Source of the DNA: a virus
Lineage: Duplodnaviria > Heunggongvirae > Uroviricota > Caudoviricetes
Strand: one strand, 5' to 3'
IMG/VR virus record: IMGVR_UViG_3300045988_038444
Location: 1-43,689 of that record
Length of the DNA stretch: 43,689 bases
Below are positions 3,745-24,895 of this stretch, piece by piece. Under the pieces are notes generated by a model, which worked only from the letters and a program-made list of their open reading frames with translations, made no database searches and was not told the DNA's origin. Both the position numbers and the translations under genes were made by a program. How positions within the stretch are numbered: position 1 is the first letter of the stretch; each line of letters begins with the position of its first letter.

Positions 3745-4516
3745 TGTTAAGTTATTTAATCAAGATTGTTTGTTCATGATGAACTTCATTACTGAAAAAT
3801 CTATTGATTTAATTCTTACAGATCCTCCGTATGGTACAACTGCTTGCAAATGGGATTCGATAATAGATTTAGATTTAATGTGGTCAAATTTAAATCGAAT
3901 CATTACGGATAAAGGGGCAATCGTTCTTACGGCAACACAACCATTTGCAAGTATTTTAGTAAATTCAAACATCAAAATGTTTAAATACGATTGGGTGTGG
4001 AATAAATCAAAACGAACTGATTTTGTAAGAGCAAAACTAAAACCAATGGGTGGTCACGAAAGCGTTTTGGTTTTCAGTAAAGGTTCTGTTGCGAATGGTG
4101 CATCTTCAATGATGAACTATTACCCACAAGGTTTGAAACGTATTAATAAAGTAGCTAAAAACGGCGGCGGTGGTTCTGGTTTTTTGGGTCGTAATGGTGA
4201 AAATTTAGGACCAAATAACAAGCTACACAAACCTACGTATATTCAAGAATTTACAGGATACCCATGCACTCAATTGAATATTCAGAGTGAGAATAAAACA
4301 GTTCATCCCACGCAAAAACCTGTAGAGTTAATGGAATATCTTATTTTAACTTACACAAAAGAAGGTGATACGGTTTTAGATTTCACAATGGGTAGTGGAA
4401 CAACAGGTGTTGCTGCCGTGAAAACTAATCGTAATTTTATCGGTATAGAGTTAGATAAAGAATATTTCGAAATTGCTAATAAACGTATTAATTTGGCATT
4501 GATGGGTATTTACTAA
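3737..4516 (+). CDS. DNA methyltransferase (N6-adenine/N4-cytosine, beta-class order: motif IV DPPY before motif I FxGSGTT)
   Basis: Start trimmed to ATG 3737 with GGAGAG SD. Motifs ILTDPPYGT and DFTMGSGTTGVAA; C-terminal NFIGIELDKEY. Confidence 0.8.
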   Translation: MVDVKLFNQDCLFMMNFITEKSIDLILTDPPYGTTACKWDSIIDLDLMWSNLNRIITDKGAIVLTATQPFASILVNSNIKMFKYDWVWNKSKRTDFVRAKLKPMGGHESVLVFSKGSVANGASSMMNYYPQGLKRINKVAKNGGGGSGFLGRNGENLGPNNKLHKPTYIQEFTGYPCTQLNIQSENKTVHPTQKPVELMEYLILTYTKEGDTVLDFTMGSGTTGVAAVKTNRNFIGIELDKEYFEIANKRINLALMGIY

Positions 4517-20759: not shown

Positions 20760-21184
20760 TGATTAAACCTCACCATTATTCCGGCTTTTAATATAGCACG
20801 TTCGACAAACCCGGAAGGTGTCTGTGTACTGCTACCACCATTGAGAACCCCAATGTAAGGAACGTTGTTAGTAATATGCAGTTCCTGACCATTAACTTTA
20901 ATACTGCTGATAGTGACTGTATCCTGTTCGATACGTGCTTTACTGGCTTCAACATTACCTGTTGGTGTATCAGGACTATTAGCGGGTTGCCCCTGATCGA
21001 ACCACCAGTTGTTGCTTGCCCAGCCACTCAATATTGGTGTACCATCAGGAGGCTCACTTATGAGTATGTTACGTAGTGTTAAAACATATCTAATGACTTG
21101 ACGATCCGTAAAATCTTGTAAGTCGGCTTTTATGTCTTTAAACACTCCAGTAATACGATTTATATCATTGATTTTGCTAGTCAT
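20756..21184 (-). CDS. Head-tail joining protein (HK97 gp10-like)
   Basis: Start trimmed to ATG 21184 to avoid overlap with the divergent HE-2; contains ISEPPDGTPILSGWASNNWW. Confidence 0.4.
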   Translation of the reverse strand: MTSKINDINRITGVFKDIKADLQDFTDRQVIRYVLTLRNILISEPPDGTPILSGWASNNWWFDQGQPANSPDTPTGNVEASKARIEQDTVTISSIKVNGQELHITNNVPYIGVLNGGSSTQTPSGFVERAILKAGIMVRFNQ

Positions 21185-21206
21185 TGACAAACCTAAAGGT
21201 AGAAAA

Positions 21207-22103
21207 ATGGGCGGTAAAAGACTAACCAAAGAACAACTAGAGCATAACATAAAAGATATTTGTCAATCAAAAAATTACAAATTTATAAAATGGAAAGACG
21301 GGTTTAAAAACAAAGAATCACGAATTATTTTATCTTGTGTTACACACGGGGAATGGGACACTAAATGTTATCATTTTTTGAATGGTTCTGGTTGTCCGAT
21401 CTGTGGTGGAACACGAACCACAAAAGGGTTAAGAATTGCACAGATTAAAGACAGTTTAACAAATTCTAAATCAAAGTTTATTAAATTTAAAACTAATTTT
21501 CAAAATGGAAATTCTGTTTGTTTGCTGAGCTGTATTGATCATGGTGGATGGGAGACAACAGTCAATAGACTAATCTTTACATCTGTTGATTGCCCGTTGT
21601 GTATAACGAATAGACAGAAAACTAAACAAGAACGAGAAATTGAAATAACAAATAGATGTAAAGAAACAGGGTTGTTTTTTAATAAGATATTCGACGAACA
21701 TCCGACATGGAAATCTAAAATATCATTAAAGTGTTCAACGCATGGTGATTTTGTTACAACAATTAATTCTTTTCTTAGTAAACAAAAAGGTTGTCCAAAC
21801 TGTAGTAAAACAGGGTTTAAAGCTGGTAAGTATGCAACACTTTATGTCTTGCGGTCCACATGCGGTCGTTACGTTAAAATAGGTATCAGTAATTGTGTAG
21901 AGCAAAGAATTAATACACTTCGTAGAAAAACACCATTTGATTTTCAAGTAATAGAAAAATTGAATGGACACGGGGCAACCATTCGTTCACTTGAAAAAGA
22001 TTTTCATTCTCATTTTGAATCTGCAGGATTAACCGGGTTCGATGGTTGTACAGAGTGGTTAAAATGGAATCCAAATATAACCACTCTGATACGGATGTTA
22101 TAG
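21207..22103 (+). CDS. Homing-endonuclease-like protein HE-2: three CxxHG...CPxC zinc ribbons + C-terminal T5orf172/GIY-YIG-like domain
   Basis: CVTHGEWDT..GCPICGG, CIDHGGWET..DCPLC and CSTHGDFVT..GCPNC. C-terminal ATLYVLRSTCGRYVKIGISNCVEQRINTLRRK...FDGCTEWLKWNPNITTLIRML. Start trimmed to ATG 21207. Confidence 0.6.
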   Translation: MGGKRLTKEQLEHNIKDICQSKNYKFIKWKDGFKNKESRIILSCVTHGEWDTKCYHFLNGSGCPICGGTRTTKGLRIAQIKDSLTNSKSKFIKFKTNFQNGNSVCLLSCIDHGGWETTVNRLIFTSVDCPLCITNRQKTKQEREIEITNRCKETGLFFNKIFDEHPTWKSKISLKCSTHGDFVTTINSFLSKQKGCPNCSKTGFKAGKYATLYVLRSTCGRYVKIGISNCVEQRINTLRRKTPFDFQVIEKLNGHGATIRSLEKDFHSHFESAGLTGFDGCTEWLKWNPNITTLIRML

Positions 22104-22926: not shown

Positions 22927-22952
22927 GAAAAAAAGCCGTCTTAAACAGACGG
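22927..22952 (-). terminator. Rho-independent terminator on the minus strand
   Basis: Hairpin GCCGTCTGTTTAAGACGGC followed by U7 when read on the minus strand. Confidence 0.65.
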
Positions 22953-23162
22953 CAAATGGCTCTGGGTGATAATGAGGGTTTTACATAACTGGTCATCCAC
23001 ACCTGACGTCCCAACATACCCCTATGCGTGACACGTGAATAACCAGTTATGTAAAACGACACGCAGTTCAGGATGTTTCACAACATGCTTTACCCACGAT
23101 TTGCGGCTTTCCCGCCAGCAAGATAAGGATCACCTCCTTATCAGCGAGTGTTTGGGTTGTGG

Positions 23163-23235
23163 CGGTTGGAATCGAACCAACTCCCATCGGTGCGATTCCA
23201 ACCGCAGTACGCGCAGCGGTCCGCTACATGACTAG
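23163..23235 (-). ncRNA. tRNA-like element: canonical T-arm (GGTTCGATTCC) within an 8-bp acceptor-like helix (GCGGTTGG...CCAACCGC-CA), plus an upstream D-arm-like stem containing GG
   Basis: Minus-strand RNA ...GCGGUUGGAAUCGCACCGAUGGGAGUUGGUUCGAUUCCAACCGCCA. No room for an anticodon arm could be found by eye. Confidence 0.25.
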
Positions 23236-23459
23236 TATTTTCACGGTCGCCTATCTGCTAGCTCGCCATTGAGCTTCACCACAACGGAAAGAGCACTGGA
23301 ACTTGGGCTGAGTATTACCGCATGTCTTTCGACTTCGAACCAAGGCTGACATTACCCAATGCTCTTACCTGTTATGTGCCGGTTACGTTTATCCGGCGTC
23401 TTTCGACCGATTAAGTGATAGTGTCTGCTATGCAGTTCTGTCACTGACTTAACAATAGG

Positions 23460-23813
23460 TCAAGAATAGTTATATGTCAAGCCTTGTGATTCACACCATT
23501 TAGCAGCGGCACTTTTACTACTAAACGATTCTGAATTCATCGGCATACCCATAACATAAACATTATAGGTTTTTGGCGCATCACGTCGGATTTCAGCCGC
23601 AGTGGTTGATGCCGATTCTTCGGTTGCTACAGTCACTGGTTCTTCAACGGTCGCAGTAGCTGGTTCAATGTGGCGCATACGCACAAGGGCGTTTAAAACA
23701 GCCGGGGTAGCTTTTGATGTTGATACTTTATCGCCAGCGGACATCTGTTTACCGTTCCACAGCATCGGACGGGTGAAAACATATTTCAGTGACGGATCAT
23801 ATGAATTACGCAT
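23460..23813 (-). CDS. Hypothetical structural-module protein (117 aa)
   Basis: Start trimmed to ATG 23813 with GAGGT SD, directly after the post-MCP terminator. Confidence 0.45.
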   Translation of the reverse strand: MRNSYDPSLKYVFTRPMLWNGKQMSAGDKVSTSKATPAVLNALVRMRHIEPATATVEEPVTVATEESASTTAAEIRRDAPKTYNVYVMGMPMNSESFSSKSAAAKWCESQGLTYNYS

Positions 23814-23830
23814 GATTTTAACCTCATGAA

Positions 23831-23858
23831 AAAAGGGGCAGCATAAGCCACCCCTTAA
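23831..23858 (-). terminator. Rho-independent terminator immediately after the major capsid gene (minus strand)
   Basis: Minus strand AAGGGGTGGCTTATGCTGCCCCTTTTTT. Confidence 0.6.
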
Positions 23859-23875
23859 TGATATCACAGTTGTTA

Positions 23876-24895
23876 TTAAACCGCGTCGTAGAACAGAACG
23901 CCCAGGTCAGGTGCAACCATCTGAACATCAATGGCAAATTCCGCTTCAACGAAATTACCACGACGGCCTTCGACACCCGGATAGGTACGGATAGACGGAC
24001 CGTTGTTAACGCCCAGACCGATGAACTCGTTCCACACGAAGCCCGCAGCCGCAACAGGTTTCATATTGCCAACAGTCGGTTCAACATAGTTGAGCATCAG
24101 CACACCAGTTTTAGCAAACCGGAAGTCTGACAGCGGATTGCCGTTACTGTCTTCAACGCCATCAGCAGCCATGTTGACCACAGACTGCATGATTTCCAGT
24201 TCGTCAACTTCCAGCAGTGCAGCCAGTGCCTGTTTAGTCACGATCCCAGGGTTCTGAGTGGTAGAACCACCGTTAATACGGTCAATAACAGCCGGGCTAC
24301 GGGTCAGTGCGTCATACACGTCCAGCGTCATCAGTGCTTTGTTCCAGCGACGACCACCGGATGCCAGAGAGAACGCAACACGACGTGACAGGATATCACC
24401 AATCGGATCGGCATTCGCATTAGACCATTTCAGGAATCCACCCGTGGACGGAGACGAGCCTTTACCCTGGAAATCAAGACCCCATTTACCAGCGGTCAGG
24501 AATTTTTCAGCAAAATCCACTTCTTTGTTGATCAGCAACGCATCTGTGGTTACTGCTGACGCTTCCATATCCAGTTGCTGACCGTTTTGAACGTTTGCAC
24601 GTTTTTTGTCAGAAATAAAGATACGGATCGCATCGTCATCAACGGTGTAACCCTGGTTTTTGGTTTTGTAACCAATAGTATTAGCAACACCATCTTCGGC
24701 ACGTTTGGAGTTAACCGGACGACCGAAATAACCTTTCGGGTAAGTCAGGAATTTACCAGCAGCCTGGTTAACAGGAACTACCGGGAAATAACGAGTACCG
24801 ACAAACAGTGACGTATCCTGCCAGTAACTTACAGAAAAGTTAGACAGGAATGTATCTGGTGCGCCAACGTCGCGAAAATTCTGTTTGTAACTCAT
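23876..24895 (-). CDS. Major capsid protein (lambda gpE-like size, 339 aa)
   Basis: Position after the decoration and scaffold genes, terminator immediately downstream, size and composition typical of gpE-type MCPs. Confidence 0.7.
   Translation of the reverse strand: MSYKQNFRDVGAPDTFLSNFSVSYWQDTSLFVGTRYFPVVPVNQAAGKFLTYPKGYFGRPVNSKRAEDGVANTIGYKTKNQGYTVDDDAIRIFISDKKRANVQNGQQLDMEASAVTTDALLINKEVDFAEKFLTAGKWGLDFQGKGSSPSTGGFLKWSNANADPIGDILSRRVAFSLASGGRRWNKALMTLDVYDALTRSPAVIDRINGGSTTQNPGIVTKQALAALLEVDELEIMQSVVNMAADGVEDSNGNPLSDFRFAKTGVLMLNYVEPTVGNMKPVAAAGFVWNEFIGLGVNNGPSIRTYPGVEGRRGNFVEAEFAIDVQMVAPDLGVLFYDAV

What the first reader, a model, noticed from the sequence alone, without database searches (positions are those of the whole stretch)
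23063..23459. 570-bp non-coding stretch in the head module with a tRNA-like T-arm/acceptor minihelix
On the minus strand, GCGGUUGG...GGUUCGAUUCCAACCGC-CA forms a perfect acceptor-like 8-bp helix enclosing a canonical T-loop. A D-arm-like hairpin with GG lies just upstream, but there is no room for an anticodon arm. It could be a degenerate tRNA, a tRNA-derived regulatory RNA, or a tRNA-like processing signal or attachment-site relic. A strong terminator (22927-22952) ends the unit.
Basis: seen in the sequence. Interest (0 to 1): 0.5.

Follow-up and report, generated by a model that had tools for sequence, protein, structure and literature searches.

The report
Unannotated tRNA-shaped RNA family in phages

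Summary
GCGGTTGG (23205-23198) pairs with CCAACCGC (23169-23162), and the repeat extends to 13 perfect bp. This helix is not a tRNA acceptor. It exists only in this phage. Three clustered substitutions (23202, 23200, 23197) created it, and it competes with the real T arm.

The conserved object is a 134-nt RNA on the minus strand (23285-23152) with class-II-tRNA topology:
- a 9-bp acceptor, GUUGUGGUG/CGCCACAAC, followed by CCA
- a D arm
- a long arm, Pa-Pb, whose 18-nt loop holds a palindromic hexamer
- a 5-bp/7-nt hairpin, Pc
- a canonical T arm

Thirty-five distinct homologues are 96.5% paired, with compensatory changes at 20 of 40 pairs. RNAalifold finds the same fold independently. ARAGORN, Rfam 15 and RefSeq annotation all miss it.

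A conserved hairpin (P1) with a hypervariable tip precedes it. P1 plus the 9-bp closing helix also frame many other cargo RNAs. More than 200 IMG/VR loci carry such units, as do phages P1, HK620, HK75 and Stx2 phages. Units always lie on the strand of neighbouring genes, often beside tRNA genes.

Most likely it is a stable tRNA mimic cut out by tRNA-processing enzymes. Its function is unknown. The copy in this window probably misfolds.

The parts
23452..23480 (-). Sigma-70 promoter-like site, TTGACA-17 nt-TATTGT, overlapping the stop codon of the upstream ORF. It is a possible own promoter for the RNA island.
   Evidence: Consensus scan, 10 of 12 matches. The number of such sites in the region is no higher than in shuffles, so this is only a lead. 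The related phage AVIO78A has a promoter annotated under the match.
23378..23407 (-). Spacer module with two small hairpins: GUC-GAAA-GAC (23407-23398) and GCCGG-AUAAACGUAA-CCGGC (23397-23378). The module recurs between units in other phages.
   Evidence: Read from the sequence. The same module follows units in L097 and L198. Analogous GC hairpins precede units in SopranoGao, PhAPEC5 and phage P1. BLAST sub-hits to many Jersey-type and Klebsiella phages.
23367..23376 (-). CAUAAC-AGGU, the conserved 5' junction (family consensus CACAAC-AGGU). CAUAAC can pair with GUUGUG of the acceptor 5' strand, which would compete with the acceptor helix.
   Evidence: Of six observed variants, five keep full pairing with GUUGUG and one (CAAAAC) keeps five of six pairs. 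In phage P1 unit 3 the three segments CGUAAC, GUUGCG and CGCAAC change together.
23289..23366 (-). P1 hairpin. The 11-bp stem is AAGAGCAUUGG (23366-23356) paired with CCAGUGCUCUU (23299-23289). It encloses a 56-nt hypervariable insert (23355-23300).
   Evidence: Inverted repeat I3. There are 105 distinct P1 hairpins; the ten stem pairs are 92-99% paired, with 84 distinct inserts of 18-119 nt. Rare fully covaried stems exist: AAUGGCACUG/CAGUGCCAUU in L050 and GAGAACACUGG/CCAGUGUUCUC in phage P1. This exact P1 hairpin is 95-99% identical in Klebsiella phages SopranoGao and JD001 and in E. coli phage PhAPEC5.
23153..23285 (-). The tRNA-shaped RNA: 131 nt plus an encoded CCA.
- Acceptor: 23285-23277 with 23164-23156
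- AA linker: 23276-23275
- D arm: 23274-23261
- Pa: 23258-23255 with 23207-23204
- Pb: 23251-23243 with 23224-23215
- Pc: 23202-23198 with 23190-23186, loop 23197-23191
- GGGA: 23185-23182
- T arm: 23181-23165, loop TTCGATT at 23176-23170
- CCA: 23155-23153
   Evidence: Alignment A2 of 35 distinct sequences is 96.5% paired. 20 of 40 pairs have changes on both sides, against 9.6 +/- 1.9 in shuffles and at most 7 in slid controls. RNAalifold predicts the same structure on its own. CM R1 scores the window copy 152 bits, but that copy is in the seed. The eight metagenome loci of the scan score 109-157 bits and add new compensatory changes.
23225..23242 (-). 18-nt terminal loop of Pb, with the palindromic hexamer ACUAGU at 23236-23231.
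   Evidence: The hexamer stays palindromic while its sequence changes: ACUAGU, UCUAGA, UCGCGA, ACCGGU, GCUAGC. It is self-complementary in all 35 sequences, and two of its three pairs covary. One variant, L223, lacks the loop altogether.
23162..23205 (-). Its arms are 23205-23189 and 23178-23162. It competes with Pc and the T arm.
   Evidence: The MFE of the window copy (-60.6 kcal/mol) uses this hairpin. The family fold scores -36.8 when evaluated on this sequence, and -39.2 when those pairs are enforced. The substitutions at 23202 (A>G), 23200 (C>U) and 23197 (C>A) are three of four differences from L030 in 546 nt. The allele is absent from IMG/VR.
23103..23142 (-). 3' region specific to Sasha-type phages. 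It has hairpin GAUAAGGA-GGUGA-UCCUUAUC (23142-23122), which contains UAAGGAGGUGAUC (23140-23128), and hairpin GCGG-GAAAG-CCGC (23115-23103).
   Evidence: Read from the sequence. Conserved in Sasha. The GCGG/CCGC stem covaries with ACGG/CCGU in Klebsiella phage JD001. The complementarity to the 16S rRNA 3' end rests on my own knowledge of that sequence.
22978..23057 (-). Long hairpin with 23-nt arms that are 91% complementary and a 34-nt loop, lying upstream of the terminator.
   Evidence: Inverted repeat I1. Identical in Sasha and L030.
22928..22953 (-). Intrinsic terminator ending the non-coding unit.
   Evidence: Scan result: 7-bp stem with 5 GC pairs, then TTTTTTT. Annotated as a terminator in Sasha.

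Best explanation
Window 23285-23153(-) is a copy of an undescribed family of phage-borne, tRNA-shaped non-coding RNAs.

Shown:
- It is a conserved five-helix fold with class-II-tRNA topology. The acceptor has 9 bp. AA links it to the D arm. A D arm with GG and a T arm with GGUUCGAUUCC form the elbow.
- An extended 'anticodon-arm' analogue (Pa-Pb) carries no anticodon loop. Its 18-nt loop holds a hexamer that stays palindromic as its sequence changes.
- A 'variable-arm' analogue (Pc) has 5 bp and a 7-nt loop.
- It lies on the transcribed strand in every annotated context examined. It follows pR'-tR' in lambdoid late operons. It lies between nutL and N in other lambdoid phages. Here it follows the capsid gene. 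Real tRNA genes lie about 100 nt downstream in some phages.
- The preceding P1 hairpin and the 9-bp closing helix form a chassis shared with many other cargo RNAs. In the commonest cargo type, two hairpins with complementary loops replace the D-loop/T-loop contact.

Inferred:
- The RNA is cut out of long phage transcripts by host tRNA-maturation enzymes: RNase P at the 5' end, then 3' trimming and CCA repair. The roughly 20-bp P1 helix may be an RNase III site.
- It accumulates as a stable RNA that acts in trans as a non-decoding tRNA mimic. It could be a decoy, a sponge or a partner for a factor that binds the tRNA elbow and acceptor. It may act as a kissing-loop homodimer.
- Units move between phages by recombination at the conserved chassis sequences.

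For this window, a templated (quasipalindrome-type) mutation made a 13-17-bp hairpin that out-competes Pc and the T arm by about 21 kcal/mol. This copy is therefore probably misfolded or inactive.

The confidence is layered:
- about 0.9 that this is a member of a real, conserved structured-RNA family
- about 0.55 that it is excised by tRNA-processing enzymes into a stable trans-acting RNA
- about 0.2 for any specific decoy role
For: Structure:
-. The alignment is 96.5% paired, and 20 pairs have double changes. Shuffled and slid controls score far lower.
- Wobble pairs occur only on this strand, which points to RNA and not DNA.

Spread:
- 160 phage records match the element.
- 158 of 5,426 complete E. 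coli genomes carry a full copy of the HK75-type unit, unannotated in the rows listed.

Not a described family:
- ARAGORN finds nothing.
- Rfam finds nothing in the window or in 19 loci.
- No text match to its sequence in the paper library.

Context:
- HK75 has pR' - tR' - P1 - RNA - holin.
- Group II copies lie in the nutL-N leader.
- The phage P1 ban operon has dicF-like - tRNA-Asn - tRNA-Thr - three units - tciABC - tRNA-Ile - ban.
- All 16 tRNA genes found within 1 kb of a unit are on the unit's strand.

tRNA ancestry:
- The model R1 aligns end to end with phage P1 tRNA-Asn at 36 bits.
- CCA follows the helix in about 60% of units.

Chassis and cargo:
-.

Window allele:
-.
Against: - No expression, processing or stability data were available for any member.
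- The acceptor has 9 bp and not 7, and acceptor plus T stem give 14 stacked bp and not 12. RNase P and CCA-enzyme recognition is therefore assumed, not shown.
- The nucleotides after the helix vary: CCA, ACCA, ACUU or none.
- The positions of U8, U33 and the Levitt pair are non-canonical.
- No trans target or partner was found. A search for antisense matches of cargo sequences in 1.8 Mb of held phage DNA found only other units.
- Palindrome conservation rests on five hexamer types, and one variant lacks the loop.
- P1 and chassis sequences are conserved as sequence more than as covarying pairs. This could equally reflect a protein site, an RNase site or a recombination site.
Confidence: 0.6

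Rival explanations
1. The element is cis-acting punctuation. The P1 hairpin plus the tRNA-shaped unit exists only to direct endonucleolytic processing, by RNase III and RNase P, and so to set the ends and stability of neighbouring phage mRNAs. The excised RNA has no function of its own, and the variable parts drift freely.
For: - Units always sit inside or at the start of highly expressed operons: the late leader after tR', the N leader, and after the capsid gene.
- Cargo and P1 tips are hypervariable while the closing helices are conserved.
- Minimal 38-nt cargos exist, in Sasha and in phage P1 unit 1.
Against: - The tRNA-like cargo itself (Pa, Pb, Pc) is conserved, with compensatory changes, across very different phages. 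A free-drifting spacer would not be.
- In the window the island has its own promoter-like site and a terminator, and is flanked by terminators on both sides.
- Cargo replacement between near-identical chassis looks like selection for diversity, not drift.
Confidence: 0.2
2. It is a degenerate tRNA gene or an attachment-site relic: a decaying copy of a phage or host tRNA with junk inserted, under no selection.
For: ARAGORN and Rfam do not call it. The acceptor, D arm and T arm resemble phage tRNAs, and R1 hits phage P1 tRNA-Asn. The copy in this window carries a disruptive mutation.
Against: Both the 5' and 3' halves are present. The 78-nt 'insert' is conserved and covaries. More than 35 distinct versions are kept in virulent and temperate phages from several genera. 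None lies next to an integrase in the contexts examined.
Confidence: 0.04
3. One reading: the 8-13-bp helix GCGGUUGG.../...CCAACCGC-CA is the functional unit, as a minihelix, processing signal or regulatory hairpin.
For: It is the most stable structure this particular sequence can form. The MFE is -60.6 kcal/mol with a z-score of -5.6. It is a perfect 13-bp repeat.
Against: It is absent from all homologues, including the 99%-identical L030. The allele occurs in no other IMG/VR contig. Three adjacent substitutions made it, which is the signature of templated repeat correction.
Confidence: 0.03
4. It is a DNA-level element. The conserved junctions (CACAAC-AGGT, GTTGTGGTGAA, CNCCACAAC) would be recombination or homing sites that move cassettes between phages, and the pairing would reflect DNA hairpins.
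For: Chassis sequences are conserved as sequence, with few covariations in the P1 stem. Mosaic joints fall exactly at these sequences in the window-versus-Sasha comparison. CACAAC occurs at both ends of each unit.
Against: G-U pairs are frequent and occur only on the transcribed strand. On the other strand they would be A-C. Orientation always matches transcription. The T-loop/D-loop and kissing-loop logic is RNA tertiary structure. No recombinase is linked to the units. Homologous recombination at conserved RNA-gene segments explains the mosaicism without a dedicated DNA site.
Confidence: 0.05
5. It is a genuine decoding or aminoacylated tRNA of unusual shape, such as a Sec-like or allo-tRNA-like suppressor.
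For: It has a long acceptor and class-II topology, and CCA is often encoded.
Against: No 7-nt anticodon loop with U33 and a purine at 37 exists. The Pc loop is CAGCGCA, or AAUCGCA here, and the Pb loop has 18 nt. The stack is 14 bp. No tRNA or tRNA-Sec model hit appears even at E<10.
Confidence: 0.02

Closest known systems
Class II (long-variable-arm) tRNA, Rfam RF00005
   Same: It has the same five helices in the same order, with tRNA-like linkers: 2 nt between acceptor and D arm, and 0 nt between T arm and acceptor. The D loop has GG, and the T arm is a 5-bp stem with loop UUCGAUU. CCA is often encoded. It sits in the places where phages keep tRNA genes. Model R1 aligns end to end with phage P1 tRNA-Asn at 36 bits.
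   Different: The acceptor has 9 bp. There is no anticodon loop. The 'anticodon arm' is 4 bp, an internal loop, 9 bp and an 18-nt loop. A stands at the position of U8. ARAGORN and the Rfam tRNA model do not detect it.
Phage T4 stable RNAs, species 1 (rnaC, 139 nt) and species 2 (rnaD, 119 nt)
   Same: They are phage-encoded RNAs of about 120-140 nt, annotated as 'small, stable RNA', lying in line with a tRNA gene cluster. rnaC has a canonical T arm, CCGGGTTCGAATCCCGG, near its 3' end. From my own knowledge, their function is still unknown.
   Different: There is no detectable homology. Model R1 does not hit rnaC or rnaD, only T4 tRNAs, and weakly. T4 has no P1 hairpin or chassis.
Bacterial Y-RNA-like YrlA (tRNA-like domain) and the tRNA-like domain of tmRNA
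   Same: They are non-decoding RNAs that mimic the acceptor/T-arm/D-arm elbow of tRNA and lack an anticodon. From my own knowledge, they are handled by tRNA-modifying and tRNA-processing enzymes.
   Different: There is no Ro-binding stem, no tag ORF and no pseudoknots. No Rfam hit appears, except an 11.6-bit partial T-arm match to beta_tmRNA against an 84-bit threshold. ARAGORN's tmRNA search is negative.
P1/P7 C4 and P4 CI antisense RNAs (Rfam C4 family)
   Same: They are small phage RNAs embedded in operons. From my own knowledge, RNase P releases them because they look like tRNA, and they present effector loops on a conserved scaffold.
   Different: They have a different size, fold and sequence, and there is no Rfam C4 hit. 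No complementary target was found for the present RNA.
Engineered 'tRNA scaffold' for expressing recombinant RNA in E. coli
   Same: The chassis is a closing acceptor-like helix plus an elbow, with an arbitrary RNA inserted where the anticodon arm would be. That is the anatomy of the whole superfamily.
   Different: The known one is a laboratory construct. Here the arrangement is natural. In most members the elbow is made by two kissing hairpins, and an upstream P1 hairpin comes with it.

Membership tests
tRNA (RF00005 / ARAGORN definition) | Detected by a tRNA covariance model or by ARAGORN | tested here: not met
   ARAGORN finds 0 genes in the window and none at the element in L001-L004. Rfam gives no tRNA hit at the gathering threshold or at E<10.
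tRNA (RF00005 / ARAGORN definition) | T arm: 5-bp stem with a 7-nt loop T-T-C-R-A-N-Y | tested here: met
   GTTGG-TTCGATT-CCAAC lies at 23181-23165. The stem covaries: GCCGG/CCGGC, GCAGG/CCUGU, GUAGG/CCUAC, GAUGG/CCAUC. In this window's allele a stronger alternative hairpin competes with it.
tRNA (RF00005 / ARAGORN definition) | D arm with the G18-G19 dinucleotide | tested here: met
   GCTC-AATGGC-GAGC lies at 23274-23261. It is invariant in all 35 sequences, so it offers no covariation evidence.
tRNA (RF00005 / ARAGORN definition) | 7-bp acceptor stem (12 stacked bp with the T stem) | tested here: not met
   Nine pairs (columns 1-9 with 123-131) are kept at 98.7%, and four of them covary. That gives 14 stacked bp.
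tRNA (RF00005 / ARAGORN definition) | Anticodon arm: 5-bp stem and a 7-nt loop with U33 and a purine at 37 | tested here: not met
   Pa-Pb ends in an 18-nt loop. The only 5-bp/7-nt hairpin is Pc, whose loop is CAGCGCA (AAUCGCA here), with A at loop position 2 and C at position 6.
tmRNA | tRNA-like domain plus a tag reading frame and pseudoknots; detected by ARAGORN or the Rfam tmRNA models | tested here: not met
   ARAGORN, which also searches for tmRNA, finds nothing. The best Rfam match is an 11.6-bit partial hit against an 84-bit gathering score. The RNA is only 134 nt.
T4 species 1 / species 2 RNAs | Sequence or structure homology to T4 rnaC or rnaD | tested here: not met
   cmsearch with R1 over T4 68-76 kb hits only tRNA genes, at 19.7 and 10.1 bits. 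It does not hit rnaC or rnaD.
New family defined here: phage tRNA-shaped RNA, tRNA-like cargo type | 9-bp closing helix GUUGUGGUG/CRCCACAAC + AA + D arm + Pa/Pb + Pc + T arm | tested here: met
   The window copy aligns over all 134 model positions at 152 bits, but it is a seed member. Every helix can form. Pc forms only with two G-U pairs.
New family defined here: phage tRNA-shaped RNA, tRNA-like cargo type | The family fold is the preferred fold of the sequence | tested here: not met
   The window MFE is -60.6 kcal/mol and uses the 17-nt inverted repeat, against -36.8 to -39.2 for the family fold. For the main type, L006, the MFE is the family fold.
New family defined here: chassis superfamily | An upstream P1 hairpin (AAGAGCAUUG/CAGUGCUCUU stem with a variable tip) preceded by CACAAC-AGGU | tested here: met
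   Window 23376-23289.
RNase P substrate (functional class) | Cleavage by RNase P at the 5' end of the acceptor helix | not testable with these tools
   Inferred only, from the tRNA-like elbow, the acceptor helix and the frequent 3' CCA.

The most novel reading that the evidence does not exclude
Enterobacterial phages share a natural 'tRNA-scaffold' system. Its chassis is the P1 hairpin, a 9-bp acceptor-like helix and an elbow. The elbow is either a true D-loop/T-loop contact or a 5-bp loop-loop kiss. Host tRNA enzymes mature the chassis, and it displays interchangeable, rapidly replaced RNA cargo domains. Those domains would be used in phage-host or phage-phage conflict as decoys, sponges or guides. 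The tRNA-like member would act as a kissing-loop homodimer. On this reading, cassette exchange at the chassis sequences is an RNA-gene counterpart of protein 'moron' shuffling.
Probability: 0.3. Interest if true: 0.9.

Novelty: new variant of a known kind. Interest (0 to 1): 0.75.

Why it matters
- If confirmed, this adds a sizeable, well-supported structured-RNA family to phages that have been studied for decades. These include the P1 ban operon, HK620, HK75, mEp460 and Stx2-converting phages.
- A full copy of the HK75-type unit is present in about 3% of complete E. coli genomes (158 of 5,426).
- It would explain several long 'empty' intergenic regions.
- It casts doubt on some annotations laid over these units: P1 plp and upl on the opposite strand, a 58-nt 'tRNA-Ser', and 'polyubiquitin-A'.
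- The chassis-plus-variable-cargo design suggests that phages use the host tRNA-maturation pathway to make stable non-coding effectors. That idea is directly testable in model phages.
- The design could also serve as a natural, optimised RNA-expression scaffold.
- For this window, the result shows that a striking perfect helix can be a recent mutational artefact sitting on top of the real conserved structure.

Tried and rejected
- ARAGORN and Rfam (gathering threshold and E<10) on the window and 19 related loci found nothing at the element.
- T4 rnaC and rnaD as homologues: no hit with R1.
- A scan of one genome per species (GTDB) found five hits. Three were chance matches (L088, L090, L091), and a fourth (L089) gave only a 14-nt D-arm match. 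The one real copy, L087, is identical to the E. coli prophage type although it sits in a 'Cellvibrionaceae' MAG. So the element is not a core chromosomal gene.
- E. coli K-12 DLP12 (the IpeX region) was checked for a unit. None is present.
- The P22 small RNA P22E, upstream of gene 13, is a different sequence. It corresponds to DNA downstream of units, not to the scaffold.
- EHEC anti-sRNAs (AgvB, AsxR) lie in the same 'moron' site, but they are 51-60-nt Hfq-binding RNAs and unrelated in shape.
- Pas sRNAs are not tRNA-shaped.
- Full-text searches for four diagnostic sequence strings, and keyword searches, found no description. A 2023 catalogue of 10,006 unnamed candidate phage RNAs could contain it, but its data are not held.
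- boxA idea: the P1 3' strand UGCUCUUW resembles boxA. However, the stem covaries away from that sequence in L050 and in phage P1 unit 2. I rate it a coincidence or secondary feature.
- Idea that P1 tips carry a common T-loop motif: only 9 of 80 do.
- Antisense targets of cargo sequences within 1.8 Mb of held phage DNA: only other units matched.
- A Pc-loop to J-strand pseudoknot: the few substitutions are not compensatory (inspection).
- A second unit elsewhere in the window: none.
Full report
**1. What is in the window**

The window is a Sasha-type (Sashavirus) siphophage, 99% identical to Salmonella phage Sasha over the capsid region. Its genes here lie on the minus strand.

After the major capsid gene (23876-24895) and a small ORF (23460-23867) come about 570 nt without a credible ORF. 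The stretch ends at an intrinsic terminator, with its stem at 22953-22935 followed by a T-run.

GGTTCGATTCC (23178-23168) is the only such T-loop-type match in 43.7 kb, against 0.08 expected. GCGGTTGG (23205-23198) is complementary to CCAACCGC (23169-23162). The repeat is longer than stated: 13 perfect bp, or 17 nt at 94%. ARAGORN and Rfam 15 report nothing here, even at E<10.

**2. Homologues change the picture**

About 250 nt (23409-23156) are roughly 90% identical to intergenic DNA of unrelated phages, including Skatevirus Seszw and Skate. Sub-segments match lambdoid HK75, Klebsiella phages, G7C-like phages and others. The nearest relative, Sasha, lacks the central part.

A first alignment showed three things:
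- The T stem covaries: GUUGG/CCAAC, GCAGG/CCUGU, GCCGG/CCGGC.
- A different, conserved acceptor exists: GUUGUGGUG (23285-23277) paired with CGCCACAAC (23164-23156), followed by CCA.

Thirty-five distinct sequences (alignment A2) support a five-helix structure:
- acceptor, 9 bp
- AA linker
- D arm, GCUC-AAUGGC-GAGC
- Pa (4 bp), enclosing an internal loop and Pb (9 bp) with an 18-nt loop
- Pc, 5 bp with a 7-nt loop
- a 4-nt linker
- T arm

The pair counts are strong. 96.5% of cells are paired, and 20 of 40 pairs have changes on both sides. Shuffles give 9.6 +/- 1.9, with 0 of 500 reaching the observed value. Controls with the partners slid by 1-3 columns give at most 7.

Pb has entirely different sequences in different types, for example UUUUGCGGU/ACCGCAAAA and UCUUCCGGU/ACCGGAGGG. 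RNAalifold finds the same structure unaided. Eight metagenome copies add further compensatory changes in the acceptor, Pc and the T stem. Many G-U pairs occur, always on this strand, which is also the transcribed strand.

The topology is that of a class II tRNA, with an oversized anticodon-arm analogue and no anticodon loop. The model built from A2 aligns end to end with phage P1 tRNA-Asn at 36 bits, which is consistent with descent from a phage tRNA.

**3. A loop that stays palindromic**

The centre of the 18-nt Pb loop is a hexamer that changes sequence but remains self-complementary: ACUAGU, UCUAGA, UCGCGA, ACCGGU, GCUAGC. It is kept in all 35 sequences of A2, and two of its three pairs covary.

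A hexamer cannot pair within itself, so this suggests loop-loop dimerisation. The evidence is suggestive only, and one variant, L223, lacks the loop.

**4.

The window differs from L030, a 58-kb IMG/VR contig of the same phage type, at 4 of 546 positions. Three of those are 23202 (A>G), 23200 (C>U) and 23197 (C>A). These are the changes that complete the 13-bp perfect repeat with the T arm.

The allele occurs in no other IMG/VR contig.

The window RNA's minimum-energy fold (-60.6 kcal/mol) uses this hairpin and destroys Pc and the T arm. The family fold reaches only -36.8 to -39.2 kcal/mol on this sequence. For the common type, L006, the minimum-energy fold is the family fold.

Three adjacent changes that all perfect an inverted repeat are what templated quasipalindrome correction produces; that is my inference. 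This copy is therefore probably misfolded.

**5. The unit belongs to a larger chassis family**

Upstream of the RNA lies CA(C/U)AAC-AGGU, then a hairpin I call P1. Its stem is AAGAGCAUUGG/CCAGUGCUCUU (23366-23356 with 23299-23289), enclosing a hypervariable tip.

Across the loci there are 105 distinct P1 hairpins. The ten stem pairs are 92-99% paired, and there are 84 distinct inserts of 18-119 nt.

Sasha keeps P1 and both acceptor strands, but 38 unrelated nt replace the 112-nt interior.

The commonest type is GUUGUGGUG-AA-[UGCGCA GGCUGA UGCGC]-variable 20-170 nt-[GCCGG AGAUCAGCA CCGGC]-CACCACAAC. Its two hairpin loops are complementary (GCUGA/UCAGC) and covary (GUCGA/UCGAC). This is a Watson-Crick substitute for the D-loop/T-loop elbow, with the same 9+5-bp stack. 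Rfam recognises none of these units.

Units are often tandem: two in SopranoGao and three in phage P1.

In phage P1 they fill the gap after tRNA-Asn and tRNA-Thr in the C1-controlled ban operon. The order is dicF-like, tRNAs, three units, tciABC, tRNA-Ile, ban. The units lie under the predicted opposite-strand ORFs plp and upl. Their closing helices and one P1 stem are fully covaried.

BLAST also finds the chassis in HK620, mEp460, Stx2 phages, D6, 157-kb Klebsiella phages, and Erwinia, Cronobacter, Edwardsiella and Acinetobacter phages.

**6. Context**

- In HK75 the unit follows pR' and tR' directly and precedes the holin gene by 240 nt.
- In six 'group II' loci it lies between a nut site (boxA plus boxB) and an N-like gene.
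- In the window it lies between a promoter-like site and a terminator, after the capsid gene.
- Sixteen of 175 units have a tRNA gene within 1 kb. All 16 are on the same strand, and some start 5-6 nt downstream.
- A full copy of the HK75-type unit is present in 158 of 5,426 complete E. coli genomes, with no feature annotated in the rows listed.
- It is absent from species-representative chromosomes, apart from one MAG contig that is probably contaminated.

**7. Mechanism**

Shown: this is a conserved, strand-specific, tRNA-shaped RNA structure in expressed positions, with modular exchange of parts.

Inferred, in four steps:
- RNase P excises it at the 5' end, followed by 3' trimming and CCA repair. 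P1, extended by CACAAC/GUUGUG to about 20 bp, may be an RNase III site.
- That extension competes with the acceptor helix. Five of the six upstream variants keep full pairing, and the pairing changes in step in phage P1 unit 3. This suggests ordered folding.
- The RNA accumulates as a stable molecule.
- It acts in trans as a non-decoding tRNA mimic, possibly as a dimer.

The actual partner is unknown.

The main rival is a purely cis-acting processing signal. Conservation and covariation of the cargo domain itself count against it.

**8. Novelty**

I found no Rfam family, no annotation and no text match.

The closest known things work similarly but are not homologous: class II tRNA, T4 species 1 and 2 RNAs, YrlA, the tmRNA tRNA-like domain, and the C4 and CI RNAs.

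I rate it a new variant of a known kind, namely tRNA-mimicking phage RNAs. The chassis-and-cargo organisation is the part that could prove truly new.

Noticed in passing
window 23142-23121 (-): The hairpin GAUAAGGA-GGUGA-UCCUUAUC contains UAAGGAGGUGAUC. From my own knowledge of the 16S sequence, this is a perfect 13-nt complement of the 16S rRNA 3' end. It is the only such site in the window. It is conserved in Sasha, and a diverged copy follows the P1 hairpin in Klebsiella phage JD001. It could be a sequestered super-Shine-Dalgarno sequence for a tiny ORF (UUG...UGA, 17 codons) or a binding element for the anti-SD sequence.
   Followed up: partly
window 22978-23057 (-): A 23-nt-arm inverted repeat, 91% complementary, with a 34-nt loop, lies between the tRNA-shaped RNA and the terminator. 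It is identical in Sasha and L030. It looks like another long processing-type hairpin.
   Followed up: no
window 21132-22103 (+): A 323-aa ORF lies on the opposite strand inside the head-tail module. It has CapR-homology domains and a T5orf172/MUG113 (GIY-YIG-like) domain. It looks like an inserted homing-endonuclease-type gene.
   Followed up: partly
L217 (phage P1 AF234172) 1198-1930: Three tandem chassis units on the + strand occupy the region annotated as the opposite-strand ORFs plp ('putative lipoprotein') and upl. A further P1-type hairpin lies upstream of tRNA-Asn, at about position 765. The two ORFs may be artefacts of annotating over RNA genes.
   Followed up: partly
L002 (Salmonella phage vB_CECAV_048) 1675-1732; phages 683R2 and 611R6: A 58-nt 'tRNA-Ser' feature, and CDSs named 'polyubiquitin-A', are annotated over parts of the tRNA-shaped RNA or the P1 hairpin. 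ARAGORN does not confirm the tRNA.
   Followed up: partly
L095 (E. coli phage PhAPEC5) 1471-1540: About 180 nt downstream of the same P1 hairpin lies a roughly 70-nt mini tRNA-like RNA. It has an 8-bp acceptor (UUCCGGUG/CGCCGGAA) plus CCA, a T arm, and an ACUAGU hexamer in its short body. R1 gives a weak hit of 20.7 bits. Further tRNA-like pieces and a tRNA-Ile follow.
   Followed up: no
L087 (MAG 'Cellvibrionaceae' JAUVQU010000080) 4317-4450: This copy is identical to the E. coli lambdoid type (167 bits). It was the only true hit among species-representative genomes. It is most likely a mis-binned enterobacterial prophage contig.
   Followed up: no
window 23833-23856 (-): A terminator-like hairpin (10-bp stem plus a T-run) lies right after the capsid gene and inside the start of the listed 135-aa ORF. 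Sasha annotates a terminator there and starts gp37 further downstream. The GTG start at 23867 is therefore probably too far upstream.
   Followed up: no
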